From the IMG/VR virus record IMGVR_UViG_3300002855_000221, positions 1 to 57,168 of that record: a DNA stretch of 57,168 bases; one strand, written 5' to 3'. The position numbers were made by a program, and so were the translations under genes. Shown in pieces: positions 797-24,484 of this stretch (position 1 is the first letter of the stretch; every line of letters starts with the position of its first letter). Source of the DNA: a virus (Duplodnaviria; Caudoviricetes). The notes under the pieces are model-generated. The model was given only the letters and a program-made list of their open reading frames with translations. It searched no databases and was not told the origin of the DNA.

Positions 797-1279
797 TCAA
801 AACGGCAGATCATCTTCATTCGGCATCGGCGGTCCGCCCTCAGCTGCTGCATTTGCCTCTTCCAGTGTCATCTGATTCGGATCCACCTCGACTGTACCGT
901 CCTGGTTGATCTTGCCTTTCAAACCTTCCCGATACTTCTTCTGATGTTCCCGGAACTCCTCAACTGTCTGACTGGCCTTGGAGATCGTTAAGATAACGTC
1001 TGTGCCAGAGAGGCTGTAGAATGCGCTGCTGCTTTCTTCGGATGTTCCGCCCTTTACCTCGAACTCCAGCACGGTCTTTTTATCATCCCTGTTGAGTTTC
1101 TTGAATTCGGCTTCGACGGTGAATTCGCCGAGGTCTTCAATTTTTAATACAACCACGCTGCGGGATAACGCGCGGAGCTCTTCTTTTTCCTCATCCGCAC
1201 CCTTGATCCAGAATGTCATGCTCTCCTTTTTGCTGTCGCGAGTTTGTTTATTGAATAAGGCCTTGATTGTAATAGACAC
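797..1279 (-). CDS. Hypothetical protein with SSB-like acidic tail (EDDLPF)
   Basis: Two internal beta-rich repeats; C-terminal DDLPF. Confidence 0.6.
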   Translation of the reverse strand: MSITIKALFNKQTRDSKKESMTFWIKGADEEKEELRALSRSVVVLKIEDLGEFTVEAEFKKLNRDDKKTVLEFEVKGGTSEESSSAFYSLSGTDVILTISKASQTVEEFREHQKKYREGLKGKINQDGTVEVDPNQMTLEEANAAAEGGPPMPNEDDLPF

Positions 1280-1282
1280 GGC

Positions 1283-1459
1283 TTATTTCCCCTCTCGTTT
1301 ATCAGTTAGATTAATTGCTGGTCCTTGCGGTATATTGACCACCTTCAGCGGTTCGAACAGTTTGGCCGTAAACTGCAGCATGCTGTTCTGCTCATCCGTC
1401 AGTGCTATAGGGTATAAAACTCCGTCTTTGCAGTAGAAGAGAACAACGCCGTCTTTCAT
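1283..1459 (-). CDS. Hypothetical protein (58 aa, MKDGVVLFYCKDG...)
   Basis: Hand-translated; RBS GAGGAGG; ATGA overlap with upstream gene. Confidence 0.7.
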   Translation of the reverse strand: MKDGVVLFYCKDGVLYPIALTDEQNSMLQFTAKLFEPLKVVNIPQGPAINLTDKREGK

Positions 1460-1593
1460 TTCTCCTCCTCGCTAGCGTCCAGTTGGATGTTCAATCCGTA
1501 CCGTGCTTGAGATTTTGCAAACTCATCCGTGGATATTTCAAGGATGTTTTTAAGTGCGGCCTTCATTCGTAAATACTCTTCTTTTTGCGTCAT
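1456..1593 (-). CDS. Hypothetical protein (start at MTQKEEY)
   Basis: RBS GGAGGT; fits operon packing. Confidence 0.6.
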   Translation of the reverse strand: MTQKEEYLRMKAALKNILEISTDEFAKSQARYGLNIQLDASEEEK

Positions 1594-1759
1594 TTCACTA
1601 CCTCCAATACAGTTACTTTCTCGTGGAAAGTTGGACAAAGGCTCCACGCTTCACACGAGTAGCTTTCATCAACCTTTTCATGCTCTTCCTCAACGGTGCA
1701 GATTAATTCGTCATTGTCATCAGAAAATGCATGGATACAAGAGAGGCAGTTTTGGTTAT

Positions 1760-2188
1760 TCATATCTCCAAAACCTCATATTCGATATCCCACTCGCCTT
1801 CTTCCCATTTCCTTAAGGGGAATGTATCCACGGTGAAATAACCATCCTGACAAAGGTTTACTTCTCGCTTTTTGATGACATCCAAATAAAATCCGCATTC
1901 TTCATCCGACCATTTGACCACGGCTTTTTCATTCCAATCGAATGTTAAACCGCCACCCAGTTCCTGCGTCCCAGTGATTAAGACAGTTACATTCTCGTAA
2001 ATCTCTTTACCAATGCGATCAGGGAGACCAACGTATTGACCTACTGTTTTAGGATCGACTTCAAATATTCCGTATGTGCTGTAAATCTCTGCTCTTTTGA
2101 CTCCATCGTCTTCCCATATGAAGGCGCCAAACCCGAACACCAACTCGCCGTTATCCAGTCGCTTCCCGCGGAATTTGTACTCTTTCAT
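1760..2188 (-). CDS. YopX family protein
   Basis: MKEYKFRGKR...EVDPKTVGQYVGLPD...EIYE. Confidence 0.88.
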   Translation of the reverse strand: MKEYKFRGKRLDNGELVFGFGAFIWEDDGVKRAEIYSTYGIFEVDPKTVGQYVGLPDRIGKEIYENVTVLITGTQELGGGLTFDWNEKAVVKWSDEECGFYLDVIKKREVNLCQDGYFTVDTFPLRKWEEGEWDIEYEVLEI

Positions 2189-7011: not shown

Positions 7012-8335
7012 ACTCCCTCACCTTCTCCGCAAGCTTTTCCTTTTGTTCCTTGCTCAGGTTGATAAAGCGCCCAGTTTTTCGGTCGAAGACCATCTCCACC
7101 GTCGCCGTCCCGATCTTACGTCCTTTAGCTATGATCAATTCGATAATTCCTTTCCGGACAGTATCCGGGTAATAGTAGTCGTCCCGATAAAGAAACATGA
7201 TGATATCTGCGTCAAACTCGATATTTCCAGATTCCCGAAGGTCGCTCATCATCGGCCGCTTGTCCTGGCGCTCCTCGCACTTCCGGCCCACGGAGCTGAT
7301 GGCGATGACCGGCACATCAAAGGTGCGGGCGATCTGTTTAAGCTGTTTGGATACGTAATTCACCCGATCTGCGTTCTGGTTGAATTTCTTCTCGGTTTCG
7401 ATCAGCTGCAGGTAGTCGATGTATATGATCAGGTTCTTGTGCTTCTTCTTCATCGCCTTTACCTGCCGACGGATATATTCAATGGTCATCCCCGGAGTGT
7501 CGTCAATGTAGATAGGCAGGCTGTCGAGAATCTCAAGCGCCTTGCTGTAGCTATGCCAATCATTTTCCGATAGGCGTCCAGCACGGACTTTCTTGCTGTC
7601 TATCCCGCCAATCGTACAGACATAGCGTTCGGCCACGTCTAGCCCCGGCATTTCGGCTGAGAACAACGCTACTGTATAACCGTTTTCTGCAGATGACCTC
7701 GAGTCGTTGACTATATAAGCGGTCTTTCCGATACTTGGCCTAGCAGCAACGATCAATACATCCTGTTTCTGATGCCCGCCTGACATCTCGTTAAAATCAT
7801 CACTGGCCGATTTTGCACCAGTCAGTCCAGCGCGGCTGCCCCGTGCCATTATCTCCTTGGGGTGTCCATCCAGAACGTCGGAAACTTTCTTCATCCCATC
7901 GACCTGCGTTTGCCCCTGGAGCTCTTCCAGTTGCTCAAGGCTCTCACGAACTGAACTTAGATTTAGCGCCCCTCCGTTCAAGACTTCACGCATTACTCTG
8001 GCGGCTCGTGATTGAATGCTGTTTTCACGAACAATTTTCTGATAATGATCAAAGTTGGATGTTGATGGAACAGAGTTCCGTAACTGCATGAGATAGGTCC
8101 AGCCGCCAATTTGTCCAAGCTCAGATCCCCAATGTTTAGCAAGTAATACTGGATCAAAGGGATCTTTCACACCCGGCTTGTTAGATAAGTTTTCATGTGC
8201 CCAACTCAATGCCTTGTAAACCAACCCGTTATTTCCTTCTGGATCGAAGTCATCGGTTCTAAGGTAACAGTCGTCAATTAAGTCTGGATTCTTCAGGATC
8301 GAACCGAGCACTGCCTGTTCTGCCTCAAAGCTCAT
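6986..8335 (-). CDS. Replicative DnaB-like helicase
   Basis: AARPSIGKT Walker A, IDYLQL, SDLRESGNIEFDAD. Confidence 0.96.
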   Translation of the reverse strand: MSFEAEQAVLGSILKNPDLIDDCYLRTDDFDPEGNNGLVYKALSWAHENLSNKPGVKDPFDPVLLAKHWGSELGQIGGWTYLMQLRNSVPSTSNFDHYQKIVRENSIQSRAARVMREVLNGGALNLSSVRESLEQLEELQGQTQVDGMKKVSDVLDGHPKEIMARGSRAGLTGAKSASDDFNEMSGGHQKQDVLIVAARPSIGKTAYIVNDSRSSAENGYTVALFSAEMPGLDVAERYVCTIGGIDSKKVRAGRLSENDWHSYSKALEILDSLPIYIDDTPGMTIEYIRRQVKAMKKKHKNLIIYIDYLQLIETEKKFNQNADRVNYVSKQLKQIARTFDVPVIAISSVGRKCEERQDKRPMMSDLRESGNIEFDADIIMFLYRDDYYYPDTVRKGIIELIIAKGRKIGTATVEMVFDRKTGRFINLSKEQKEKLAEKVREYEQTHSKR

Positions 8336-8703
8336 TTCCGGTTCACCTTCTTCTCCAGCAGCTGCTCAAGTTGAACCCGCACATGCTCCGGCATAGGTAC
8401 TGCCTTTTCGTTGTACTCAGCCAAAGCTAGCTGATCGGCTTCTTCTTGTTCCCTCTGAAGCTCATAAAATGATCGGGGTTGCCCTTGGCACGCTTGATAA
8501 ATCTCCCCTGGAGTAGGAGGGAATTTAGTCTTAGTCCGGCAAAGTTCCCTTGTCTTTTCGATCGCCAATTGATTTGGAACATCTTGAAGGATGTCGTACC
8601 AAACCGCTACCTCTTGCTCGACTTGATCATCATCTGCCGTCCGGAAGCTCCGGTAAGCCCCTGCGATGTACTTCATCAGTAATATCACGCCTGCGCGATC
8701 CAT
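8332..8703 (-). CDS. Helicase loader/inhibitor (SPP1 G39P-like)
   Basis: WYDILQDVP...KFPPTPGEI; lies between initiator and helicase. Confidence 0.75.
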   Translation of the reverse strand: MDRAGVILLMKYIAGAYRSFRTADDDQVEQEVAVWYDILQDVPNQLAIEKTRELCRTKTKFPPTPGEIYQACQGQPRSFYELQREQEEADQLALAEYNEKAVPMPEHVRVQLEQLLEKKVNRK

Positions 8704-13197: not shown

Positions 13198-14755
13198 GGG
13201 ATAATTCCTCCGATTCGATTTTTAATGGTTTTCCTTCAATGACTTGGCATAAGATCAATTGCCCTCGTGGAGCCTTGTAGTGCGTAACACTTTCCTTGTT
13301 GTCGATAAAACATGGGGCTATCCAGCCGCTCTGCTGGCTGATGACGTTTCGGACTTCCAAGCCCGCCCGTATAGCTCCTGATAGGGAAAACTGTGTTGGA
13401 GTCTTGCCGTATTGATCAATCACAAAATCCGCTTTGATGTCGCCGTTCTTTTGTTCCTTAAAGAGCCGGATCTTAATCGTTTCGAAAAGCCCTTGTACCT
13501 TGGCTGCTTGCAACTCGGCAGCTTTAGCTTCATAAGACTTAATAGCGTCCAGGATAAAGATGGAATCGTTACGGCTCGCCAACGTAGCAGCCTCATCTGC
13601 CCGTGCCTTTTCCAGATCGGCTTGCAAGCTCTGACTTCGGTTGTATAATCCAATCGCGTCCGCTTTGGTATCCCTGCGCTTCTCCAACGCTCTCATCTGT
13701 TCCCAAAGCTCTGACACGTCTATAAGTTCCACAGCGGCCAGCTCTACCTCTAGCTCTTTACGTTGAGCAACCAACTTGTCATGCTCATCTCGCAGAGGCT
13801 TCTTGCGCTCATCTTTATTAGTTTCAGCCGCCTGTTTAGCTGCCTCATCAAATGGCCGCTTACAAGTTGAACATTCCTCTGCAATTTCTTCATTGTGAAC
13901 CTTCATGTATCGATCCTTGGCAGCTGCAATCTGCTGCCGAACATTTTCAATCGTTCCTTCAAGTACCGCCTGCTTCCGCTTGGGCTCATCGGCCAGCTCG
14001 ATCTTGGCATGGATTGCCTTGACCTGCTTGACCAGCTCAGCGTCCTCCGCTTTAATCGCCTCGATGTCTTCCGGCATCTCTGGTAGCTGCCGGAATTGCT
14101 CTTCAAGGGTTTCTGTTCTCCCTTGTGCCTTTTTATGTGCAGTGTCCTTGTCGTTCTTATTCTTCTTATGGATTTCCTCAAGTTGTGGCAGCGTGTGTTT
14201 CTTAACCAGCTCAGCCAGCTTCTCAGCTTGAGGGTTCAATTTGATATCCTTCAGTTTCTGGTCTGGATCCGTCCGGCTCATTTCGGCAAACACTTCTTTT
14301 TGGGTCGGCGGCATTTCATATCGAAGCATTATTTCACGCTGCTTTTCCCAATGAAGAGAGAAAAAGTATGAAGGATTGTATAAGCATAGGAACAGATCCT
14401 TGTCGATCAGAGACTTTACGATCTCTTCAAAGTCGCTCGCCTTGCTTGGCACATCATTGATGTAATAGGTGGCTTTCCCCTTCTCGATCCCGCGGCCAAA
14501 TTTCAGCAGCTTGCCATCCACTTCCAGCAGCGTTTCTGCCATGACATAATCGTATTTATACGTCGTAGGAGTAGGGTCCATCTTGCTCCCAAAGGTGTCC
14601 GTGCCGTACAATGTCCATGGAGGGATATCCAGAACACTGGACTTTCCTTCCTCGTTGTCCCCCGTGATCTTGGTCAGGTCGCCAAACTTAACACATAGAT
14701 CACGGTGGGCTTTAAAGTTATGACACATGCCCTCAATTAACTTGAATTGGTTCAT
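13181..14755 (-). CDS. Rad50/SMC-like ATPase
   Basis: GDNEEGKS Walker A, long coiled coil, CSTC zinc hook, FIDNKE Walker B. Confidence 0.88.
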   Translation of the reverse strand: MNQFKLIEGMCHNFKAHRDLCVKFGDLTKITGDNEEGKSSVLDIPPWTLYGTDTFGSKMDPTPTTYKYDYVMAETLLEVDGKLLKFGRGIEKGKATYYINDVPSKASDFEEIVKSLIDKDLFLCLYNPSYFFSLHWEKQREIMLRYEMPPTQKEVFAEMSRTDPDQKLKDIKLNPQAEKLAELVKKHTLPQLEEIHKKNKNDKDTAHKKAQGRTETLEEQFRQLPEMPEDIEAIKAEDAELVKQVKAIHAKIELADEPKRKQAVLEGTIENVRQQIAAAKDRYMKVHNEEIAEECSTCKRPFDEAAKQAAETNKDERKKPLRDEHDKLVAQRKELEVELAAVELIDVSELWEQMRALEKRRDTKADAIGLYNRSQSLQADLEKARADEAATLASRNDSIFILDAIKSYEAKAAELQAAKVQGLFETIKIRLFKEQKNGDIKADFVIDQYGKTPTQFSLSGAIRAGLEVRNVISQQSGWIAPCFIDNKESVTHYKAPRGQLILCQVIEGKPLKIESEELSHENNQ

Positions 14756-15104
14756 CCTTTTTTCTTGCCTCCTTTACTCCAGTCAGCCCTAGGCTAATTA
14801 GGATTTTCTGGTCCACGCCATTCATCTCGTATTTGCTGAGGTACTCACCTGTTTGGAACAAAAGCCTACTTTTGCAGACGGTTCGAATTTGCTCCAGCAA
14901 GACGACTGATGGCTTTTCCGTACTCCATATCTCTTGATGTGTCGGCATATATCGCTTATTACAATCTGTAATAGGTGCAATGATCGTTGTGGGTGAATGA
15001 AGATTGCCCACATCGTTTTGAAGGATCACAACTGGTCGAGTTCCGTGCTGTTCACTGCCCAGCCCTTCTCCAAGGTCAGCCATCCAAATTTGTCCTCTTT
15101 TCAT
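14733..15104 (-). CDS. PemK/MazF-family endoribonuclease (orphan)
   Basis: MKRGQIWMADL...GSEQHGTRPVVILQNDVGN...LLEQIRTV. Confidence 0.9.
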   Translation of the reverse strand: MKRGQIWMADLGEGLGSEQHGTRPVVILQNDVGNLHSPTTIIAPITDCNKRYMPTHQEIWSTEKPSVVLLEQIRTVCKSRLLFQTGEYLSKYEMNGVDQKILISLGLTGVKEARKKDEPIQVN

Positions 15105-15117
15105 TTGCCTGCCTCCC

Positions 15118-15735
15118 CTAAATCTCCGTCTTCTTTTGTTCCAGCGAATCAATTTCCGCCGCCTTTTCCTGTAAGCTCTTTAGCATCGAAGGGATATTCA
15201 ACCGGCTGATAATATCAGCAGACAACTGTTCGCGAAGATTCTTCTCAAGGGTTTTCAGAACTGTGTCCTCCGCTCGTTGCCGCGCATCTGCAATTAGCGC
15301 AGCCAACTTGTTTTCAAGCTCTCTACCAAGCATGTTATGGGCAAAGTATTCATGGATTGTATACTTTGCTTCACGCTCCCGTTCAGTACGATTGCCACGT
15401 TCGTCGAAGACCTTCCGTTCAAGGAACTTGTCGTACTGTTTGCCTACATACTCACTGAGAGGCAACAACTTAACTTCATCCCGCCACATTCCTGTTTCCC
15501 AAGGGATTTTGATATTTTGAAGCTTCTCCTCAAAAATGGTTGTAAGAAATTCACTTGTTACTTTGTCTGCCGCTTCAGTGATCTTCGCTTCAATGGTTGA
15601 TTGCACTTGCTTCTCGACCTTGCTTATGAGTCGATCCTGCAATCCCCTTACAACCTCGTCTCTAAGCTCGTCTGAAACGTTCCCGGTCTCAGAATCAAAC
15701 CAATCTAACTCCAATTCGACTTTCATTTTGGACAT
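15118..15735 (-). CDS. Hypothetical protein
   Basis: 205-aa ORF with RBS. Confidence 0.7.
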   Translation of the reverse strand: MSKMKVELELDWFDSETGNVSDELRDEVVRGLQDRLISKVEKQVQSTIEAKITEAADKVTSEFLTTIFEEKLQNIKIPWETGMWRDEVKLLPLSEYVGKQYDKFLERKVFDERGNRTEREREAKYTIHEYFAHNMLGRELENKLAALIADARQRAEDTVLKTLEKNLREQLSADIISRLNIPSMLKSLQEKAAEIDSLEQKKTEI

Positions 15736-17354: not shown

Positions 17355-17591
17355 TTAATTATTAAGAATACTAGGGCATAGCAATTCCTTGGGATTAAGC
17401 TCCAACTCCTCAACCATACACAGCTTCTCAACTTCATCGGCATGTAGCGTTGATGAACCGTCCATCACCCGGTAGAATCTCCCGAGTGGGATACCTGACT
17501 TCTCTGCTGCAACCTTTAACGGTATGCCCTTAGAACGGATATGGTTCCGGATTCGTTGAGACACGGAGGATTCAGTAGATGAATTCAACAT
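17355..17591 (-). CDS. Cro-like HTH regulator
   Basis: IRSKGIPLKVAAEKSGIPLGRFYRV; divergent from cI; RBS GGAGGTG. Confidence 0.82.
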   Translation of the reverse strand: MLNSSTESSVSQRIRNHIRSKGIPLKVAAEKSGIPLGRFYRVMDGSSTLHADEVEKLCMVEELELNPKELLCPSILNN

Positions 17592-17622
17592 GGCTATCAC
17601 CTCCATTCTATTCAATTTCCCA

Positions 17623-17748
17623 ATTCCTAGAATCTAAGAATTTCGTAAACCAAATATACATCCTATTTTCTAAGAATGCAACCCTTATTTTAGGAATATT
17701 TTTATTTTTTTCTGCGTATTTAAGAATAAGTTCTCCGTTTCTAGGAAT
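17623..17748. promoter_or_regulatory. Immunity-region operators
   Basis: Half-site TYTARGAAT at 17633, 17669, 17689, 17719 and 17740; near-palindrome ATTCCTAGAATCTAAGAAT at 17623-17641; related ATTCTTAATTATTAAGAAT at 17351-17369. Confidence 0.7.
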
Positions 17749-17787
17749 TATGATAGTATCTGAGTTGTTAAGGAGAGGTGGATTTAT

Positions 17788-18162
17788 ATGTTACCGATTT
17801 ATGCTAATCGTCTTAAAGAAGCGCGCATTAACAAGAAGTTTTCTCAAGTCCAAGTGAAACAGCATACTGGGATCAATAATAAGACTCTAAGTGGGTATGA
17901 AAACGGGGTAAGTGAACCGGATTATGACACACTCAAGGTCTTGTGTGACCTCTATGAGGTATCAACTGATTGGGTACTTGGAAACACAAACAACCCTAAC
18001 AGCAGCTTGACGGATGCCGAAAGGGATGCGGTAAAAAAGATAAATTTAAGTGACGATTCCTTTTTGAGTTTAGACATGGAAATAGACGGTAGGGAACTAA
18101 CAGATGCACAAAAACAGAAGGTCCTTGCTATGGCTCGTCTGCTTCTTCAACAAGATCACTAA
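17788..18162 (+). CDS. CI-like XRE repressor (no peptidase domain)
   Basis: RLKEAR...TLSGYENGVSEPD...VSTDWVLG. Confidence 0.9.
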   Translation: MLPIYANRLKEARINKKFSQVQVKQHTGINNKTLSGYENGVSEPDYDTLKVLCDLYEVSTDWVLGNTNNPNSSLTDAERDAVKKINLSDDSFLSLDMEIDGRELTDAQKQKVLAMARLLLQQDH

Positions 18163-18339
18163 TTAGCAACTGGATTAAGTTTTGATTTTGTGGCGTATCC
18201 TTTGCAATTGACTTCAAGAAACAAGCAACATCCAAACCACCTGATGAATTCTTCATAAATTTGTTACCCCCATATATTTTTTTATTACAAGCGAATGATG
18301 TGTTTATTCAAATTTTAATTTTATATTTGGAGGATCAAT

Positions 18340-18567
18340 ATGGCACTGCAACTCGGCAGGTGCCTATTGCGCTATTATCGGACTAAGGCTGGCCTTACTC
18401 AGGAATGCCTTGCCGATCGTCTCCGGAATGATTTGGGATTAACGGTGTCATCGACAATGATCAGTCAATATGAGAATGACCATCGGCCCATGTCCCCTCT
18501 CATTATGCGCGGGGTATGCATTATTCTTGGATGTACAGAGGCCGATTTATATGAATGGCCCCATTAG
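18340..18567 (+). CDS. Small XRE HTH regulator
   Basis: GRCLL...GLTQECLAD...ISQYEND...LGCTEADLYEW. Confidence 0.85.
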   Translation: MALQLGRCLLRYYRTKAGLTQECLADRLRNDLGLTVSSTMISQYENDHRPMSPLIMRGVCIILGCTEADLYEWPH

Positions 18568-18770
18568 CGTAATAGGTATGGAGTGAGTAGTTTACTGCTC
18601 CCTGCCGAGGCTGACTTTACAAGCTCGTAAAGTTTTTATTTGTCAACAAATTTGTTTGTTATACATTATTTAACTCCAGATGGGTGATATTGTAAACAAA
18701 AGCTGGGGAATCCGAATTTATTTGTAAAAACATCAAACTTTCTCCACTTCTGAAGTGTTATATATAAATG

Positions 18771-18807
18771 AGCAAAAAAAACGGACCTATCACTCCTGTG
18801 TAGGTCC
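18771..18807 (-). terminator. Rho-independent terminator of the agr-like operon
   Basis: GGACCTA/TAGGTCC stem followed by a U-tract on the minus strand. Confidence 0.7.
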
Positions 18808-18823
18808 TCTTTCATATTTCAAC

Positions 18824-19204
18824 TCAATTTATGATTAATTGCGGATTAAGCATCATAAATTCCTTCTCAAGTTCCGAATACCTCCAATATGCCAGGGTGC
18901 AGTATTTAGAGGTTTTCTTGACTTCATCGCTAAAGTACGCCCTCTTTTGTAAACTATCCATCAAGACAATCTTATCGATGTTAACCGCGATATTCCGATC
19001 AACAATTCGATAACTTTCCCCGCTACTGTTAAGAGTAGTTGCCCAATACTTCAATGTACCTGGTAAGTAAAACTCTTCTCTCTCAGTATGAACAGCTACC
19101 CTTTGAATTGGCTTTCTTGACTCCAGGAATATGATGTCATTTCGGTTCAGATTTACAATTCCTGATTCGCCCTCAATATCCCTTGTCACTGTAAGATATT
19201 GCAT
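18824..19204 (-). CDS. Stand-alone LytTR DNA-binding protein (no receiver domain)
   Basis: DIIFLES...VAVHT...GTL...YRIVDRNIAVNIDKI; only 126 aa. Confidence 0.85.
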   Translation of the reverse strand: MQYLTVTRDIEGESGIVNLNRNDIIFLESRKPIQRVAVHTEREEFYLPGTLKYWATTLNSSGESYRIVDRNIAVNIDKIVLMDSLQKRAYFSDEVKKTSKYCTLAYWRYSELEKEFMMLNPQLIIN

Positions 19205-19225
19205 TGCTGAATCAGCTCCATTTTC

Positions 19226-19351
19226 TTATTTATTTAACAATTCCGCTGGTGGTTCCGGATTGTTAACAAAAATCAGACTTGCTGGGTAAACGGACAGTAC
19301 GGCAAGAGCGGATAATACCGTTGCGAATTTGGAATATACATATGATCTCAT
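19226..19351 (-). CDS. agrD: AgrD-like cyclic lactone autoinducer precursor (41 aa)
   Basis: Hand-translated MRSYVYSKFATVLSALAVLSVYPASLIFVNNPEPPAELLNK; ATGA overlap with agrB; PxxPxxL tail. Confidence 0.85.
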   Translation of the reverse strand: MRSYVYSKFATVLSALAVLSVYPASLIFVNNPEPPAELLNK

Positions 19352-19887
19352 GACTGCTTCTCACCTCCTTTCATGATCTTGTTTAGGATTAAAGTAATAC
19401 ATTGAACAAAGAAAGCTATCGCAACGGAGTTAGAAGTAAGCAATAGATTTAATATAACCAGTAAGAAAGACACCATCTTCAATGCTGGAAAGAACTTCGG
19501 TGGGATAATGGTTTGTTTTTCAATACCGGTAGGTGCATACAACAGAACTAGGATTGCACTGATGATTGTAAGAGTAACGATCCAGAAATGATCCAAGGAA
19601 ATGAACGAAAGCAACGTGGCTGTGGCTGCTGTGATCAATGCGCAGCTTGTACTTGACCTCAAGTGTAAACCGCCGGAAAGTTGTCTTAGGGCAGCAAAGG
19701 ATGATAATAAAATAACTACTTCGCGCGTATTCCCTGTGAACAACGAAACCGTCAATGATAGTCCTACAACTGCAGTAACGTTCAGGATGATAATCAGGAT
19801 ATGATTGAGAACCGCAACAGAGGCAGGATGATCCGGCACCACCGACTTAATATGTGTTGCCATCTTCCAGGCCATGTTCTCTATCAT
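19348..19887 (-). CDS. agrB: AgrB-family peptide-processing membrane protease
   Basis: LRQLSGGLHLRSSTSC with catalytic His/Cys spacing, YAP motif, multiple TM segments; start MIENMAW. Confidence 0.92.
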   Translation of the reverse strand: MIENMAWKMATHIKSVVPDHPASVAVLNHILIIILNVTAVVGLSLTVSLFTGNTREVVILLSSFAALRQLSGGLHLRSSTSCALITAATATLLSFISLDHFWIVTLTIISAILVLLYAPTGIEKQTIIPPKFFPALKMVSFLLVILNLLLTSNSVAIAFFVQCITLILNKIMKGGEKQS

Positions 19888-20471
19888 AAGAAATCCTCCC
19901 GTTCCTTCTGAATTGCGTAATATAAGAAAAGTCCTGATGCCACAGCGAAAAATAATATGTTTATCCATACCTGATGCTGATACAAAGAGATTGTCATCAA
20001 GATGAACGATAATATAATCACGGTGATGACAATGATGCGTTCTCCTTTAAACCTCAGCTTGTCAAAATCGAGAGCAAATCCTATTCCGAACCGGTACAAT
20101 ACATACGACAATGCCATAATTAACACACTTGTGACGATCTGTAGTAATTCTCCTCTAATCGTTGTAAACAAAACCGCTTGGATGGTTCCATAAAGGAAGA
20201 ATCCTATACACGCAACGATGGCTGACCAAATCAGTGAGACTTTAACAACGGTTGTTAACAGAAGGACGTAACAGAGTAGATTAATTAGCGTTGCTATGTA
20301 TCCCAAGTCAACCTCTCTTAAAAAGTAACTCTGAATGCCCATCAATAATGCGATAATGAAAGACTGCCAGATGTACTCAAGTGCGTTCATTCTGAATATC
20401 GCCATCATCAATACAAATGCTGCGTAGACCTCTAATGTTGAGAACAGCATAAACATGACCATATCCCACAT
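19884..20471 (-). CDS. Multi-pass membrane protein, AgrC sensor-like, no kinase domain
   Basis: 195 aa, almost all hydrophobic (about 6-7 TM); ATGA-coupled to agrB; no H-box or ATPase motifs. Confidence 0.7.
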   Translation of the reverse strand: MWDMVMFMLFSTLEVYAAFVLMMAIFRMNALEYIWQSFIIALLMGIQSYFLREVDLGYIATLINLLCYVLLLTTVVKVSLIWSAIVACIGFFLYGTIQAVLFTTIRGELLQIVTSVLIMALSYVLYRFGIGFALDFDKLRFKGERIIVITVIILSFILMTISLYQHQVWINILFFAVASGLFLYYAIQKEREDFL

Positions 20472-20492
20472 CGGCTCTAATCCCCTTAATAA

Positions 20493-20798
20493 TTATTTCT
20501 TGCTGCGCCACTCCTCGAGCTGATCCTTATAATGTTGAATACTTGTCTCAAACCAAAACGGCCGAGTTCCAACCATGAAATCTGGATCAGGAAAAAATCG
20601 AGTCTTTCGGGCATGGTGCATGTTCTTGGGGTCAATTCCGATGGCGTCTGCAACTTCTTTGTTACCCAAGACCCTCGGGAATTTAATCCCTGCAATGATC
20701 TCTCGGGCTTCTTTCAACTGGTTAACAAGTTCTAAAATTTCTAACCCTTTTTCTCCCCCTATCTCTTCTGCCATCAAGCGGTACTTATTCAAGGTCAA
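20493..20798 (-). CDS. AlpA/excisionase-like HTH protein heading the agr operon
   Basis: VLGNKEVADAIGID...FFPDPDFMVGTRPFW. Confidence 0.7.
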   Translation of the reverse strand: MTLNKYRLMAEEIGGEKGLEILELVNQLKEAREIIAGIKFPRVLGNKEVADAIGIDPKNMHHARKTRFFPDPDFMVGTRPFWFETSIQHYKDQLEEWRSKK

Positions 20799-20854
20799 GT
20801 GAAACCATCTCCTCTGCTGTAAATTCCTCGTTTGTTATATATTGGTTGATTGAC

Positions 20855-20906
20855 GTTGTATAAAATATACGACATTGTCATATAAAATACAAGACTTTAT
20901 CGTATA
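20855..20906 (-). promoter_or_regulatory. Sigma-A-like promoter with overlapping repeats for the HTH-agr operon
   Basis: Minus strand TTGTAT-17-TATATT; TATAAAATA at 20859 and 20881; imperfect palindrome GTTGTATA-AAA-TATACGAC. Confidence 0.55.
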
Positions 20907-20966
20907 TAATTCACAAAAAAATAACCGGGAAAACATCCCGGATATTTTGCCAGCCTAACTTCAAGA

Positions 20967-21218
20967 TCATAGACCTTCTAATGTTTCAATCTGACTATTC
21001 GTAAGTTTGTGTCTAAACGCGTTATCTAAATGCATGTATATATCTTGAATCCCGTCCAGGACACCGTTTAATCGTGATATTTCATGCTCAAGGTTGTTCC
21101 TTTCTTTCGGGCTAACTGTTGTATAATCAATTTTCTTTTGAATTCGTTCTTTTTCATCCTCTATTTCATTTTTATATACAATAATCCTTTTCAATTGTTC
21201 AAATAAGATATCACCCAC
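20967..21218 (-). CDS. Hypothetical protein (AT-rich accessory gene)
   Basis: RBS AAGGAG; terminator-like CCGGGA/TCCCGG at about 20915-20947. Confidence 0.65.
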   Translation of the reverse strand: MGDILFEQLKRIIVYKNEIEDEKERIQKKIDYTTVSPKERNNLEHEISRLNGVLDGIQDIYMHLDNAFRHKLTNSQIETLEGL

Positions 21219-21313: not shown

Positions 21314-21916
21314 CTATTTTATTCGTTTCAACATCTCATCCACCGGACTCTGGAACACCCTGAACAACCTTCCATCCGTGCGATAATTCCCAGTCCCGGA
21401 CCCGATTATCCAGATATACGGGAACACCTTCTTGGCCGCCGGCTGCCAAGGCTCCTGTTCCCATTCACCGCTAAGGTAATACTGCTCATATCGGTTCATC
21501 TTCTCCTGCATTACTCTGTCTGAAAACTGGCTCCTTTGTATCTCCACGAACCACGGAGCACCCTTCCAGATCGTGAACACGTCCGGCTCAGGTCTTCCCT
21601 TACCTCCCGTCTTGGGCTCCACATTAAACACCCTCGGTTCCTCAACCTTCCGGATCTCTTTATAGAAATTTACGATAGCCAGGAAGTGTCCGATCTTAGC
21701 ACTGTCCTTTTTAATGCCTGGCACAGGGAAGTATATGTACTTCCGGCGATCGGTGGTACATGTAATGATGTCATCTCGACGCAGCCGCTTAAGTACCATG
21801 TTCGCCTGGGTTATCGGATTCTTTACATTGGAGAAATGGAGTTCCGCCACATCATCACGAGTGAGGCAACGGAACCGCTCCAGATCCTTTACAATAGCCA
21901 TGTCACGCGCATTCAA
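21314..21916 (-). CDS. Replication-relaxation (Replic_Relax) family protein
   Basis: RDMAIVKDLERFRCLTRD...HFLAI...PDVF...FVEIQRS...KMNRY. Confidence 0.85.
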   Translation of the reverse strand: MNARDMAIVKDLERFRCLTRDDVAELHFSNVKNPITQANMVLKRLRRDDIITCTTDRRKYIYFPVPGIKKDSAKIGHFLAIVNFYKEIRKVEEPRVFNVEPKTGGKGRPEPDVFTIWKGAPWFVEIQRSQFSDRVMQEKMNRYEQYYLSGEWEQEPWQPAAKKVFPYIWIIGSGTGNYRTDGRLFRVFQSPVDEMLKRIK

Positions 21917-21918
21917 TC

Positions 21919-23133
21919 CTACAACACCCCAATCTCAATGGTGTCATCTTCCTGAGCTTCCTGATCAACAGCCTGAGCCGTTGCCGCCTCCTCTGAGCGC
22001 GTGTATGGCTCCAGGAGTGCCTTTGCCTTGGGAATATCTAAGTATGGCCCTTGAACTGATTTCATGCCATCCAGCTTCAATATCATGCGGCCCTTTTGGC
22101 TCTGCTGGATATCTGCAGCTTCTCCGCTGCCTAGGGTAATACGGCTGTTGATCTCGTCACTATGGCGGAATGCCATCCTTACTGTAAGATTATTCTTGAG
22201 CTTACCGTCCAGGACGTCAGCATCTGGCCGCTGCATCGAGAGGATCAAGAACACACCCAGGGCTCTGCCGATCGCGCTGATCTCCTCGATTCCTTCCATG
22301 AGGTCCTTTTCCTTTTTGAGCAGTGCCACTTCATCAATCGCCAAGACGATGTAGGGAGGCCGATCAGCTACCGGCAGATCCTCAATGTTTGCCAAGCCAG
22401 CTCGGTCCAGCAGATCCCCGCGACGCCTCATCTCTTTCCTGATCTTAAGCACGATCTGGTGCAGCTGAGGAGCTTCAACAACAACCTGCTGGGCGATAGA
22501 TTTGAATATATGGAACTCTGACCGCTTAAGGTCAGCGCAATACAATTCCAGTCTGTCCGCCGCTGTCCGGATTATCGTTGTAAGTATGGACCTCAAGGCA
22601 ACCGACTTCCCACTGCCAGTCTCCCCGGCCACCAATAAATGCGGGTGCTCCGTCATGTCATACACTTCATCCCCTGTCCGGCTCCGTCCGACATAGATAG
22701 GTAGCCTGAGTCCTTGCACGGCCTTTTCCACGGTTTCTAGGTTATAATCAAACCGCTGTACATCCTGACCGTAGATGTTGAGTGTGAACGTCTTAGAGGA
22801 CCCCGTCAGCTCAATGTTGTCGCCAAATGTTTGTTCAAATAGCCATGCTCTCTTACGAACCTCCTGCGGGTCCAAACCATTTGGTAGGATAAACACCACC
22901 TGCACGCAATCATGGTACACCGTGACCCGGCTTACCTGCGGGTAAGCGCGAATCTCCTTCCCCTGTCGAACCTTCCGCTTATAACATATCTCTCCGGCCA
23001 GAAAGAGCTTCCGCATCTTGGCTCTGTACACAGAATCCGCGCTCGATCTATAAACCGTCCACGCACCTCCCAGGCATCCGCACGCTGCCGCTAATTTCAA
23101 GACTGCGAATCCTCCTACTCCGCTAATTACCAT
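21919..23133 (-). CDS. FtsK/SpoIIIE-domain ATPase
   Basis: PHLLVAGETGSGKS, IDEVA, LSMQRPDA. Confidence 0.92.
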   Translation of the reverse strand: MVISGVGGFAVLKLAAACGCLGGAWTVYRSSADSVYRAKMRKLFLAGEICYKRKVRQGKEIRAYPQVSRVTVYHDCVQVVFILPNGLDPQEVRKRAWLFEQTFGDNIELTGSSKTFTLNIYGQDVQRFDYNLETVEKAVQGLRLPIYVGRSRTGDEVYDMTEHPHLLVAGETGSGKSVALRSILTTIIRTAADRLELYCADLKRSEFHIFKSIAQQVVVEAPQLHQIVLKIRKEMRRRGDLLDRAGLANIEDLPVADRPPYIVLAIDEVALLKKEKDLMEGIEEISAIGRALGVFLILSMQRPDADVLDGKLKNNLTVRMAFRHSDEINSRITLGSGEAADIQQSQKGRMILKLDGMKSVQGPYLDIPKAKALLEPYTRSEEAATAQAVDQEAQEDDTIEIGVL

Positions 23134-23266
23134 TCGCTTCGCCTCTTTTCGCTATCGCTCAAAACAAATTCATAATTTCTTTATCCCTCAAGGTTTTTGC
23201 TCGTACTACAATTGCAATGTTACTGCTGCATATACAAACTTACCTGCATAGGTCTCTGCTAATGCA

Positions 23267-23470
23267 TCAAACATGCACTCCAAAGGTGCGGGCAACCATC
23301 TGCAAGCAATCCCACCAGGCATCAAGTGAGATGTATGCACACGCCACATACCCAGCAATCTTGATGTACATTACCTTGCCGCCGTGCCCCATGTTCTCCA
23401 GTACATTGGAACAGAAATGAGATACTACCCCGATCCCGAGGATTTTAAAAATAGCCGTCAGTTCGATCAT
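23267..23470 (-). CDS. SpoIIIAC/AD-like small membrane protein
   Basis: IFKILGIGVV...VLENMG pattern resembles SpoIIIAC. Confidence 0.6.
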   Translation of the reverse strand: MIELTAIFKILGIGVVSHFCSNVLENMGHGGKVMYIKIAGYVACAYISLDAWWDCLQMVARTFGVHV

Positions 23471-23481
23471 GTTATCCCTCC

Positions 23482-23688
23482 TTAGATAAACCCCTCAACC
23501 GCAAAATCTTCCTGCAGTTCCGCTACCTGCTGCCGAGGCCCTGGGAAGCCTCCGTCAATATCTCGCTGGATCAATCGTTTTAGAAAGCCCGACTGATTAG
23601 GCCGCAGCCGCACATGCTCATATTGCTGCAGCTGGTCGGGATCCAGAACGTTAAACGCCACCTGTATAATCCGGATATCCTTAGCCAT
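23482..23688 (-). CDS. Putative ParR-like adaptor / ribbon-helix-helix protein
   Basis: VAFNVLDP...NQSGFLKRLIQRDI; coupled to the parM-like gene. Confidence 0.55.
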   Translation of the reverse strand: MAKDIRIIQVAFNVLDPDQLQQYEHVRLRPNQSGFLKRLIQRDIDGGFPGPRQQVAELQEDFAVEGFI

Positions 23689-24484
23689 AGACCTTCCTCG
23701 CGATCAGATAAAATGCTTTTACATTTGCATATTCTGGGTCACCCTCAATCATCCGAACATCAGGAAAGTAAGCCTTCAGCGCAGCCAGGACATCCCCCGC
23801 ACCACCTCCGCAAAGATAAACTGTGTCATTCGCTTTCCAGCCCCTTGCGAGCGCTCTGAGTGCTATCTGGCGGGCGAAATCTGCTGGCTGCACGGATCGC
23901 AAGGTTTCCATGCCGGTACCGAGCGTGAAGCTTCCTCGGTCATTAAAGCGACGATCGATGAGCGTGCCAAAATTAACCGTACCGCTGCCGACATCGATCA
24001 CGCGAACCAAACCACCACCCGGCACCAGTAATCCGGCAGTTACTCCTTCCGCTGCCACCTCGCAGCGCCGAATGACGATGATCTTTCTCTTGCCGTTTAC
24101 AGTCAGCTCATGCCGGCCACATAGCATTTCTTTGATAGCCGACTTTTCAGCCTCGTGGTGCGTGCTGATCGGCTGGCCGACAATGATCTGATGCTCTATC
24201 CCCTCGCCAAACTGATGTAAAGCCAGTAGCGTCCGCAGGCGTGCATCTGGATGAGCTTTGGTTTCCCCTTTACGACTATCCGCGCATTCGCTCTCATGTA
24301 GTGCCAGCGTGCCAGCGAAGCCACGCTGCCCGTCATATTCCCATTCATAGTCAAACTCGCCATACTGCTGTTTCAGATTCCGCTCCCTATACTCCCCGAT
24401 CAGAGAGGGGAATGCTTGCAGCTTCCTACCGTCATAAAACTTGGTCCTGTAATTTCCCGCATCAATGGCCGATATCATCCGCAT
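23681..24484 (-). CDS. ParM/StbA actin-like ATPase
   Basis: IDAGNYRTK, AEG, IDVGSGT and LCGGGA actin-fold motifs. Confidence 0.9.
   Translation of the reverse strand: MRMISAIDAGNYRTKFYDGRKLQAFPSLIGEYRERNLKQQYGEFDYEWEYDGQRGFAGTLALHESECADSRKGETKAHPDARLRTLLALHQFGEGIEHQIIVGQPISTHHEAEKSAIKEMLCGRHELTVNGKRKIIVIRRCEVAAEGVTAGLLVPGGGLVRVIDVGSGTVNFGTLIDRRFNDRGSFTLGTGMETLRSVQPADFARQIALRALARGWKANDTVYLCGGGAGDVLAALKAYFPDVRMIEGDPEYANVKAFYLIARKVYG

What the first reader, a model, noticed from the sequence alone, without database searches (positions are those of the whole stretch)
18824..20471. Matched absence of kinase and receiver domains: phosphorylation-free Agr signalling
Seen: the protein in the sensor position is 195 aa of TM helices with no HisKA/HATPase domain, and the regulator is LytTR-only with no REC domain. 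Both ORFs are intact and tightly packed, which does not look like decay. Known: streptococcal LytTR Regulatory Systems (HdrRM, BrsRM) pair a LytTR activator with a membrane inhibitor. Inference: an Agr/LRS hybrid in which peptide binding makes the membrane protein release or sequester LytTR. An alternative is a decoy receptor that jams host Agr.
Basis: partly seen in the sequence, partly recalled or inferred. Interest (0 to 1): 0.82.

Follow-up and report, generated by a model that had tools for sequence, protein, structure and literature searches.

The report
Kinase-less Agr-type peptide signalling cassette on prophage
A Paenibacillus prophage carries a tight operon that makes an Agr-type cyclic signalling peptide, but in place of the usual sensor kinase and phospho-accepting regulator it has a small seven-helix membrane protein and a DNA-binding-only regulator; this layout proves common and unstudied in this bacterial family.

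Summary
On the minus strand, 18824-20471 holds four intact, overlapping genes:
- a 195-aa seven-helix membrane protein with no Pfam or NCBIfam domain;
- AgrB;
- a 41-aa AgrD with serine in place of cysteine;
- a 126-aa LytTR-only protein with no receiver domain.

A fifth gene, a small DNA-binding protein at 20493-20798, heads the operon. Terminators bracket the unit.

- The window is a complete temperate prophage, and the cassette lies beside its immunity region.
- The membrane protein belongs to a large family of proteins named only "hypothetical". It matched in 257 of 401 sampled Paenibacillaceae genomes and sat directly upstream of AgrB in 35 of 36 chromosomal and 9 of 9 phage loci examined. 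None of the 150 best relatives reaches kinase length.
- Kinase-less "AgrC-like" membrane proteins beside phage agrBD were mentioned in one paragraph in 2014.

A LytTR-only gene follows in 9 of 9 phage loci but only 18 of 36 chromosomal loci.

The best reading (0.45) is a phosphorylation-free peptide sensor that controls the LytTR protein by contact. The main rival (0.27) is a helper of AgrB in peptide maturation or export. No experiment or co-fold decides between them. It counts as a new variant of a known kind.

The parts
20925..20941 (-). Terminator-like hairpin followed by a T-run, ending the upstream unit and insulating the cassette
   Evidence: scan (6-bp stem, 5 G-C pairs, T-run).
20859..20902 (-). 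Promoter region of the cassette. It holds two tandem 22-nt direct repeats that overlap sigma-70-like -35 and -10 hexamers.
   Evidence: -: repeat family D1, spacing 22, 77% identity.
- the paired motif occurs once in the window, against 0 in 100 shuffles.
- 9 of 200 shuffles of the 212-nt upstream region reach the score, and no equivalent repeat exists in the 7 related loci.
- the alignment shows a conserved -35/-10 pair, with a palindrome in the spacer in the other loci.
20493..20798 (-). First gene of the operon: a 101-aa small DNA-binding protein
   Evidence: - phrog_597 'DNA binding protein', E 1.5e-7.
- It stops 21 nt before the 7TM start.
- It is present upstream of the 7TM gene in all 7 related phage loci and in some chromosomal loci, such as L054, L091 and L093.
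19884..20471 (-). 195-aa seven-helix membrane protein (the '7TM' family), with no kinase domain; candidate peptide sensor
19348..19887 (-). AgrB, 179 aa from the ATG that overlaps the 7TM stop; the peptidase/cyclase for AgrD
   Evidence: - PF04647, 53.1 bits.
- phrog_10353, E 5.5e-29, alignment starting at residue 28 of the longest ORF.
- ATGA overlap with the 7TM stop.
19226..19351 (-). AgrD precursor, 41 aa. It has an A-S motif followed by four hydrophobic residues and a proline/acidic tail, and no cysteine, so a serine lactone ring is predicted.
   Evidence: - TIGR04223, E 0.003, 17.7 bits, under the cut-off of 19.
- The same [AP]S-xxxx motif is in all 33 AgrD sequences recovered from 38 loci.
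- The Abouo homologue is annotated as 'cyclic lactone autoinducer peptide'.
18824..19204 (-). LytTR-only DNA-binding protein, 126 aa, with no receiver domain
   Evidence: - PF04397, 27.7 bits.
- A profile of 23 family members finds the AgrA DNA-binding domain (3bs1, 4xqq, 4xqj) as its best solved relatives, E 1.5e-5.
18774..18808 (-). Terminator-like hairpin (7-bp perfect stem, 11-nt loop, run of 8 T) just after the LytTR stop
   Evidence: Read directly. The scan missed it because its loop limit is 8.
17355..18567 (.). Phage immunity region next to the cassette. It comprises an 86-aa HTH gene (17355-17615, -), a 124-aa cI-like repressor (17788-18162, +) and a 75-aa HTH gene (18340-18567, +). 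The last is convergent with the cassette.
   Evidence: Pfam HTH_3 and HTH_19; phrog_8, phrog_3 and phrog_4 repressor families.

Best explanation
The window is a complete temperate Paenibacillus prophage. Between its replication/partition genes and its immunity region it carries a self-contained five-gene operon: a small DNA-binding protein, a seven-helix membrane protein (7TM), AgrB, AgrD and a LytTR-only protein.

Proposed mechanism:
1. AgrB cleaves and cyclises AgrD into a five-residue serine-lactone autoinducing peptide, which leaves the cell.
2. The 7TM protein senses that peptide. Its N-terminus is outside and its C-terminus inside. Conserved polar residues sit in the outer half of the bundle, and a conserved cytoplasmic loop and tail sit on the inside.
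3. It has no kinase, so it passes the signal by protein contact. Most likely it holds or releases the LytTR-only regulator, as membrane inhibitors do in LytTR Regulatory Systems.
4. The regulator then binds DNA at the cassette's own promoter and/or at phage or host targets.

Shown here: gene content, order and coupling; absence of kinase and receiver domains in every relative seen; wide conservation.

Inferred: the peptide's chemistry, the sensor role, the sequestration step and the output.
For: - Architecture: ATGA overlaps, terminators on both sides and one promoter.
- No other receptor candidate exists in the cassette or the phage. The whole record holds one AgrB and no further Agr gene.
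- Length: the 7TM family is always stand-alone. The 14 close relatives are 192-208 aa. None of the 150 best of 262 representatives exceeds 293 aa. The 'longer' searches found nothing.
- Fold: in the ESM Atlas structure search, two of the three best named-or-unnamed rows are AgrC-type kinases (PF14501 in 100% of members, 422 and 432 aa). They align to residues 28-195 and 3-195 at TM-by-query 0.66 and 0.64. An AlphaFold2 model of a Paenibacillus AgrC-type sensor domain is likewise a seven-helix bundle of about 200 aa.
- Topology: K+R counts are 7.5 in loops 1, 3 and 5 plus 3.1 in the C-tail, against 2.0 in loops 2, 4 and 6. This puts the C-terminus in the cytoplasm, as in a sensor module.
- Invariant residues fall into two groups: an outer-half polar group (S11, E14, Q47, R52, Q98, Q111) and a cytoplasmic group (R27, Y126, G129, G131, F132, E144, Y185, K189).
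- A LytTR-only gene of 122-136 aa follows AgrD in 9 of 9 phage loci and 18 of 36 chromosomal loci.
- LRS precedent: LytTR regulators without receivers are controlled by co-encoded membrane proteins (PMC6193735, passages seen).
- Covariation: 7TM divergence tracks ring-residue differences slightly better than AgrB divergence does. Partial Mantel r is 0.243, with 0 of 2000 permutations reaching it, against 0.128 with 49 of 2000 (33 loci). This is weak evidence, because relatedness is not fully controlled.
Against: - In 18 of 36 chromosomal loci no LytTR gene follows. The 7TM protein therefore cannot depend on LytTR everywhere.
- Its constant partner is AgrB, with translational coupling.
- The conserved cytoplasmic loop is also present in loci without LytTR, for example the P. 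polymyxa type. That argues for a partner common to all loci.
- The window's LytTR protein is only 25-28% identical to those of the 7 related phages, whereas 7TM is 51-59% and AgrB 50-57% identical. This suggests module exchange rather than tight co-evolution.
- There is no sequence-profile similarity to an AgrC-type sensor family (hhalign probability under 1%).
- The structural resemblance rests on one service's predicted models and has no E-value.
- LRS-type direct repeats are not conserved.
Confidence: 0.45

Rival explanations
1. The 7TM protein is a helper of AgrB rather than a receptor. It would export the cyclised intermediate, remove the N-terminal leader, or scaffold AgrB. On this reading the peptide is sensed elsewhere, and the LytTR-only protein is regulated in some other way.
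For: - The 7TM gene lies directly upstream of AgrB in 35 of 36 chromosomal and 9 of 9 phage loci, usually with overlapping stop and start codons.
- Half of the chromosomal loci have no LytTR gene.
- The conserved cytoplasmic loop is shared by loci with and without LytTR.
- Every AgrD recovered from the 38 main loci is of the serine type (33 of 33), so a special maturation need is conceivable.
- In staphylococci, leader removal and export need factors outside agr. This point is recalled, not checked here.
Against: - Canonical AgrB and AgrD suffice for peptide production in a heterologous host. This was shown for a cysteine-type P. polymyxa locus expressed in B. subtilis (PMC12180512, passages). 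That is a different locus type.
- The family has no protease or transporter signature. No Pfam family recurs in 36 members, and there is no invariant histidine.
- Divergent members sit beside cysteine-type AgrD as well (L090, L091, L093), so the family is not serine-specific.
- This reading would leave the phage cassette with a signal and a regulator but no sensor.
Confidence: 0.27
2. Signalling runs through the host. The phage peptide is read by a chromosomal AgrC-type kinase and LytTR response-regulator pair that has no agrBD of its own. The phage LytTR-only protein competes with, or substitutes for, the host regulator at its DNA sites. The 7TM protein modulates this or acts as a decoy.
For: - All three host genomes with related prophages hold an orphan pair: a 429-432-aa kinase (PF14501, 96-104 bits) next to a LytTR response regulator (a 255-aa ORF read in G001; open frames of 246-259 aa in the three genomes). 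No AgrB lies nearby.
- Those hosts have no AgrB other than the prophage-type ones.
- The best solved relative of the LytTR-only protein is the DNA-binding domain of AgrA.
Against: - Across the family sample the kinase's sensor domain is in 127 of 401 genomes and is negatively associated with the 7TM family. The counts are 67 both, 190 7TM only, 60 kinase only and 84 neither, giving odds ratio 0.49. This is not corrected for relatedness.
- A protein without a receiver domain cannot take a phosphoryl signal.
- The three hosts are close relatives, so 3 of 3 is weak evidence.
- The window's own host genome is not available.
Confidence: 0.12
3. The two genes are decayed remnants of agrC and agrA from a canonical agrBDCA locus picked up by the phage.
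For: Nothing beyond their positions next to agrBD.
Against: - The gene order is 7TM-B-D-LytTR, not B-D-C-A.
- The ORFs are intact, overlapping and of constant length in 45 loci.
- Residues are strongly conserved.
- No kinase-length relative is among the 150 best representatives.
- No spare DNA is left for lost domains.
Confidence: 0.03

Closest known systems
Canonical Agr quorum sensing (agrBDCA of Staphylococcus, Listeria and Clostridium; an agrABCD locus is also reported in the P. polymyxa paenibacillin cluster, PMC13700820)
   Same: - The AgrB peptidase and the AgrD precursor have the usual leader, five-residue ring and proline/acidic tail.
- The regulator has a LytTR DNA-binding domain whose nearest solved relative is AgrA.
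- All genes lie in one operon.
   Different: - There is no histidine kinase and no receiver domain.
- The sensor-position gene comes first, not third.
- Serine replaces cysteine in the ring.
- An extra small DNA-binding gene heads the operon.
- The cassette is carried by a phage.
LytTR Regulatory Systems (HdrRM and BrsRM of Streptococcus mutans; PMC6193735)
   Same: A LytTR regulator without a receiver domain is co-transcribed with a membrane protein, and no phosphotransfer is involved.
   Different: - The LRS membrane inhibitors carry DUF3021 or DUF2154 and follow the regulator gene. Here the membrane protein has neither domain, precedes the regulator, and is separated from it by agrBD.
- The signals for LRS are unknown. 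Here a dedicated peptide signal is encoded.
- The conserved promoter direct repeats that define LRS were not found across the related loci.
agr genes of Clostridioides difficile phage phiCDHM1, and the cassette noted in phages Abouo, Davies and Emery (PMC3901668)
   Same: - These are phage-borne agrB and agrD next to the lysogeny module.
[quoted passage not shown]
- Abouo gp44 is a member of the same 7TM family (hhalign probability 99.1%, E 1.4e-18).
- Abouo gp47, annotated 'peptidase', matches the LytTR-only profile (probability 81%, E 1.2e-5).
   Different: - phiCDHM1 has a kinase-bearing AgrC and no regulator.
- The 2014 note did not recognise the LytTR-only partner, the size of the family or its chromosomal spread.
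- I found no functional follow-up.
Arbitrium (AimP/AimR) peptide communication of Bacillus phages
   Same: It is a phage-encoded secreted peptide system placed beside the lysis-lysogeny switch. This is an analogy of position only, recalled from memory and not tested here.
   Different: - Arbitrium uses a linear peptide that is imported and bound by a cytoplasmic receptor.
- Here the peptide would be cyclic and sensed at the membrane.
- No link to the lysis-lysogeny decision has been shown.

Membership tests
Agr quorum-sensing system (agrBDCA) | AgrB membrane peptidase | tested here: met
   PF04647, 53.1 bits, cut-off 23.
Agr quorum-sensing system (agrBDCA) | AgrD precursor with a ring-forming Cys or Ser five residues before the cleavage site and a conserved proline/acidic tail | tested here: met
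   - The motif is visible in the sequence.
- TIGR04223 scores 17.7 bits, just under the cut-off of 19.
- Serine takes the place of cysteine in 33 of 33 related precursors.
Agr quorum-sensing system (agrBDCA) | AgrC: membrane sensor fused to a HisKA/HATPase_c_5 kinase | tested here: not met
   - The 195-aa protein has no kinase domain.
- None of its 150 best relatives has one.
- No other kinase gene lies in the cassette.
Agr quorum-sensing system (agrBDCA) | AgrA: receiver domain plus LytTR domain | tested here: not met
   Only the LytTR domain is present. The protein is 126 aa, and the relatives are 122-136 aa.
LytTR Regulatory System (LRS) | LytTR-family regulator lacking a receiver domain | tested here: met
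LytTR Regulatory System (LRS) | Co-transcribed membrane protein that carries DUF3021 or DUF2154 and is encoded downstream of the regulator | tested here: not met
   - A membrane protein is co-transcribed, but it has no Pfam domain.
- It lies upstream of the regulator, with agrBD between them.
- The definition is taken from PMC6193735.
LytTR Regulatory System (LRS) | Direct repeats about 12 bp apart just upstream of the operon's -35, giving positive autoregulation | tested here: inconclusive
   - The window has two 22-nt tandem repeats at the promoter, but they overlap the -35 and -10 hexamers.
- The 7 related loci show nothing above shuffles.
LytTR Regulatory System (LRS) | The membrane protein inhibits the regulator | not testable with these tools
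   This needs genetics or binding assays.
AgrC-type (HPK10) sensor domain | Multi-helix N-terminal membrane module with a cytoplasmic C-terminal end, homologous to AgrC, ComD or FsrC sensors | tested here: inconclusive
   - Seven helices, N-terminus outside and C-terminus inside.
- ESM Atlas structure rows to PF14501 kinases at TM-by-query 0.66 and 0.64.
- No sequence-profile similarity to one Paenibacillus AgrC-type sensor family.
- The PDB is uninformative: a model of that kinase's own sensor domain also finds nothing there.

The most novel reading that the evidence does not exclude
A temperate phage uses an Agr-type cyclic lactone peptide as its own communication channel. Lysogens secrete the peptide. 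A kinase-less seven-helix receptor reads it at the membrane and, without phosphorylation, frees or traps a LytTR-only regulator. That regulator tunes the neighbouring lysis-lysogeny switch. This would be a membrane-sensed counterpart of arbitrium. The same receptor-regulator logic would then serve hundreds of chromosomal Agr-like loci in Paenibacillaceae, making it a third way, besides kinases and cytoplasmic receptors, for Gram-positive bacteria to sense peptides.
Probability: 0.2. Interest if true: 0.85.

Novelty: new variant of a known kind. Interest (0 to 1): 0.62.

Why it matters
Agr signalling is the textbook case of peptide sensing through a histidine kinase. A large family of Agr loci that replaces the kinase and the receiver domain would have several consequences:
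- It would show a phosphorylation-free route from an extracellular cyclic peptide to DNA.
- It would give LytTR Regulatory Systems, whose signals are unknown, their first defined ligand.
- It would add a second kind of peptide communication to temperate phages.

The question is directly testable. Related cultured phages (Brevibacillus phages Abouo and Davies) and common soil Paenibacillus strains carry the cassette.

If the membrane protein instead helps AgrB, it would fill the long-open gap of how Agr peptides are exported or trimmed.

Tried and rejected
**Co-folding.** I co-folded the 7TM and LytTR-only proteins with 23-row alignments. The verdict was 'no answer': scores 0.27 and 0.00 against a mark of 0.32, and the controls were not run. 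This is evidence neither way.

**Solved structures.**
- A profile search of PDB sequences gave 0 hits.
- As a control, a model of a real AgrC-type sensor domain also found nothing in the PDB. These blanks therefore say nothing about likeness to AgrC.

**Sequence-profile comparison.** hhalign of the 7TM family against a 21-member AgrC-type sensor alignment gave probability under 1%.

**Searches for kinase-length relatives.**
- The single sequence against 343-2000 aa proteins gave none of 884 candidates.
- The 36-row profile covered only 514-2000 aa and gave none. Profile coverage of 343-513 aa is therefore missing.
- Only the best 150 of the 262 hits were visible.

**Other database searches.**
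- The ESM Atlas feature search among named clusters gave no usable hit.
- GenBank phages gave no DNA match for 17500-21000.
- tblastn with the 7TM protein found no match.
- tblastn with AgrB found 4 records, covering two Brevibacillus phages.

**Promoter repeats.** LRS-type direct repeats in the promoter were not conserved.

**Peptide-receptor covariation.** The first run mis-parsed one precursor, L002. The corrected run is. The effect is small and relatedness is not controlled.

**Sequencing runs.** None was listed, and no RNA holder was listed.

**Rejected readings.**
- Decay of agrC and agrA: rejected for the reasons given under rival explanations.
- Decoy against host Agr: no host agrBD other than 7TM-type cassettes was found in the 3 host genomes.

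**Papers.**
- Supplementary files were not opened. Table S3 of PMC12180512 and Table S3 of PMC6193735 could bear on whether these loci were catalogued.
- Papers were read as passages only or as search listings.
- The claim that no functional study is in print rests on searches alone.
Full report
**1. What is in the sequence**

The interval 18824-20471 holds four minus-strand ORFs:
- a 195-aa membrane protein, 19884-20471;
- AgrB, 19348-19887, counted from the ATG at residue 28 of the longest ORF, where the PHROG alignment begins;
- a 41-aa AgrD, 19226-19351;
- a 126-aa LytTR protein, 18824-19204.

The stop of the membrane gene overlaps the AgrB start, and the AgrB stop overlaps the AgrD start. 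Both are ATGA overlaps. LytTR begins 21 nt after AgrD.

Domain searches gave the following:
- Pfam gives AgrB (53.1 bits) and LytTR (27.7 bits, residues 15-93). It gives nothing for the membrane protein, and no kinase or receiver domain anywhere.
- NCBIfam gives nothing for the membrane or LytTR proteins. It puts AgrD just under the TIGR04223 cut-off.

A fifth gene, a 101-aa DNA-binding protein (20493-20798, phrog_597), ends 21 nt upstream of the membrane gene. The unit is bracketed by a terminator at 20925-20941 and a hairpin plus T-run at 18774-18808 (read).

**2. Context**

The window is a whole IMG/VR provirus record that CheckV rates complete. It carries:
- a tape-measure protein, large terminase and partition protein;
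- a Replic_Relax-type initiator and an FtsK-like protein;
- a serine integrase at its end.

The cassette sits next to the immunity region. That region holds a cI-like repressor at 17788-18162 and HTH genes at 17355-17615 and 18340-18567. The cassette is transcribed towards it. The host is Paenibacillus, judged from the relatives.

**3. Relatives on phages**

- Seven related loci carry the same five genes in the same order: three Paenibacillus genomes and four IMG/VR contigs.
- Their AgrD ring region is almost invariant (A-S-L-I/V-F-V), while the 7TM and AgrB proteins are only 50-59% identical to the window's.
- The window's LytTR protein is just 25-28% identical to theirs. It is 52% identical to a chromosomal one, L043.
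- The cultured Brevibacillus phage Abouo has the same layout between its integrase and its repressors: membrane protein gp44, AgrB gp45, 'cyclic lactone autoinducer peptide' gp46 and a 122-aa gp47 annotated 'peptidase'.
- gp44 belongs to the 7TM family (hhalign probability 99.1%). gp47 matches the LytTR-only profile (probability 81%).

**4. The 7TM family at large**

- An exhaustive profile search found 262 cluster representatives at E <= 0.001. The best 150 are 58-293 aa, so none is of kinase length.
- In a sample of 401 Paenibacillaceae genomes, 257 have at least one match, with up to seven per genome.
- Sources name the proteins only 'hypothetical protein', and no Pfam family recurs in 36 diverse members.
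- In the 30 best chromosomal loci, AgrB follows in 30 of 30, AgrD was detected in 26 of 30, and a LytTR-only gene follows in 17 of 30.
- A second locus in one host has 7TM-AgrB-AgrD but no LytTR.
- Of five divergent members, four are followed by AgrB, one of them with LytTR and three with cysteine-type AgrD. One has a peptide gene but no AgrB.
- In total, AgrB is adjacent in 35 of 36 chromosomal and 9 of 9 phage loci. LytTR-only follows in 18 of 36 chromosomal and 9 of 9 phage loci.

**5. Is the 7TM protein like an AgrC sensor?**

- AlphaFold2 gives seven helices (pLDDT 83.6).
- Loop charges place the N-terminus outside and the C-terminus inside.
- Invariant residues form an outer-half polar group and a cytoplasmic group centred on loop 5 and the C-tail.
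- The ESM Atlas structure search returns two clusters of PF14501 kinases at TM-by-query 0.66 and 0.64 over nearly the whole protein.
- A model of a Paenibacillus AgrC-type sensor domain is also a seven-helix bundle of about 200 aa.
- Against this, profile-profile comparison with that sensor family finds nothing.
- The PDB holds no usable reference, because both models draw blanks there.

The resemblance is a lead, not proof.

**6. The host side**

- The three host genomes have no AgrB apart from the prophage's, plus one further 7TM-type cassette. There is thus no canonical host agrBD to jam.
- Each host has an orphan AgrC-type kinase next to a LytTR response regulator.
- Across the sample, that kinase's sensor domain is in 127 of 401 genomes and is negatively associated with the 7TM family (67/190/60/84, odds ratio 0.49).
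- The 7TM systems as a class therefore do not depend on it, though the phage subgroup might.

**7. Regulator and DNA sites**

- The nearest solved relatives of the LytTR-only family are AgrA DNA-binding domains (E 1.5e-5).
- The window's promoter holds two 22-nt tandem repeats. This pairing is unique in the window, and the spacing suits LytTR proteins.
- The seven related loci lack such repeats. They show instead a palindrome between the -35 and -10 hexamers.
- The regulator's targets remain unknown.

**8. Mechanism**

I favour a phosphorylation-free sensor that controls the LytTR protein by contact (0.45). The reasons are:
- The cassette otherwise has a signal and a regulator but no receptor.
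- The topology and the two conserved faces suit a transducer.
- The fold lead points to AgrC-type sensors.
- LytTR-only regulators elsewhere are governed by membrane partners (PMC6193735).
- 7TM divergence tracks ring differences slightly better than AgrB does.

The main rival is an AgrB helper (0.27). It is fed by the near-absolute link to AgrB, by the many loci without LytTR, and by the cytoplasmic motif shared by both locus types.

A host-kinase route (0.12) and gene decay (0.03) are less likely.

**9. Prior knowledge and novelty**

- Hargreaves et al. [quoted passage not shown]
- Phage genome papers list only the AgrB gene.
- Work on P. polymyxa concerns cysteine-type loci with a kinase and response regulator.
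- My searches found no paper on the LytTR-only partner, the family's spread or its function. Supplements were not seen.

I rate it a new variant of a known kind. It is Agr-type signal production joined to a kinase-less, receiver-less output. It is widespread, is carried by phages, and can be tested.

Noticed in passing
window 14733-15152 (-): A 139-aa ORF matches a MazF-like growth inhibitor (phrog_1936, E 9.4e-27). It overlaps the end of the next gene. No antitoxin partner was looked for.
   Followed up: no
window 21314-24484 and 55516-57168: The prophage combines plasmid-like genes with a large serine integrase that runs off the window end (phrog_95). The plasmid-like genes are a Replic_Relax initiator, an FtsK-like ATPase and a ParM-like partition protein.
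   Followed up: partly
window 18128-18256 (-); L002-L008 about 8224-8357 (+): A 40-42-aa ORF with an acidic tail lies downstream of the LytTR gene on the same strand. It overlaps the 3' end of the cI-like gene in antisense. It is conserved in all 7 related phage loci.
   Followed up: no
L003-L008, about 60 nt upstream of the first cassette gene (alignment A3, columns 215-255): The related phages have a perfect palindrome (ATACGG, five bases, CCGTAT) between the -35 and -10 hexamers of the cassette promoter. It is a likely operator for a dimeric helix-turn-helix protein. At that position the window has a different, imperfect palindrome.
   Followed up: partly
L013/L028 (G001), L014 (G002), L015 (G003): An orphan AgrC-type kinase and LytTR response-regulator pair has no agrBD nearby. 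In G001 (L028) a PdxS-like ORF lies alongside; the name is assigned by eye. The sensor domain is found in 127 of 401 sampled genomes. Its signal is unknown.
   Followed up: partly
L094 (G030:C13) 1288-2145 (-): A divergent 7TM-family member (E 3.5e-15) is followed by a 50-aa peptide gene that does not look like AgrD. No AgrB is present. This is the only AgrB-less locus seen.
   Followed up: no
L092/L095 (G017:C88) 1086-1965 (+): Here the 7TM gene is split into two overlapping ORFs, probably by a frameshift. AgrB, AgrD and LytTR-only downstream are intact.
   Followed up: no
L034-L040, L042 (P. polymyxa-type loci): In the two loci read in full (L034 and L038), a multi-pass membrane ORF of about 390-416 aa lies immediately upstream of the 7TM gene. 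By eye it looks like an acyltransferase. These eight cassettes have no LytTR gene.
   Followed up: no
cluster 1: One 90%-identity cluster lists both the 210-aa 7TM proteins and the 171-aa AgrB proteins of P. polymyxa. The two sequences are unrelated, so this looks like a clustering artefact, perhaps caused by a fused gene call.
   Followed up: partly
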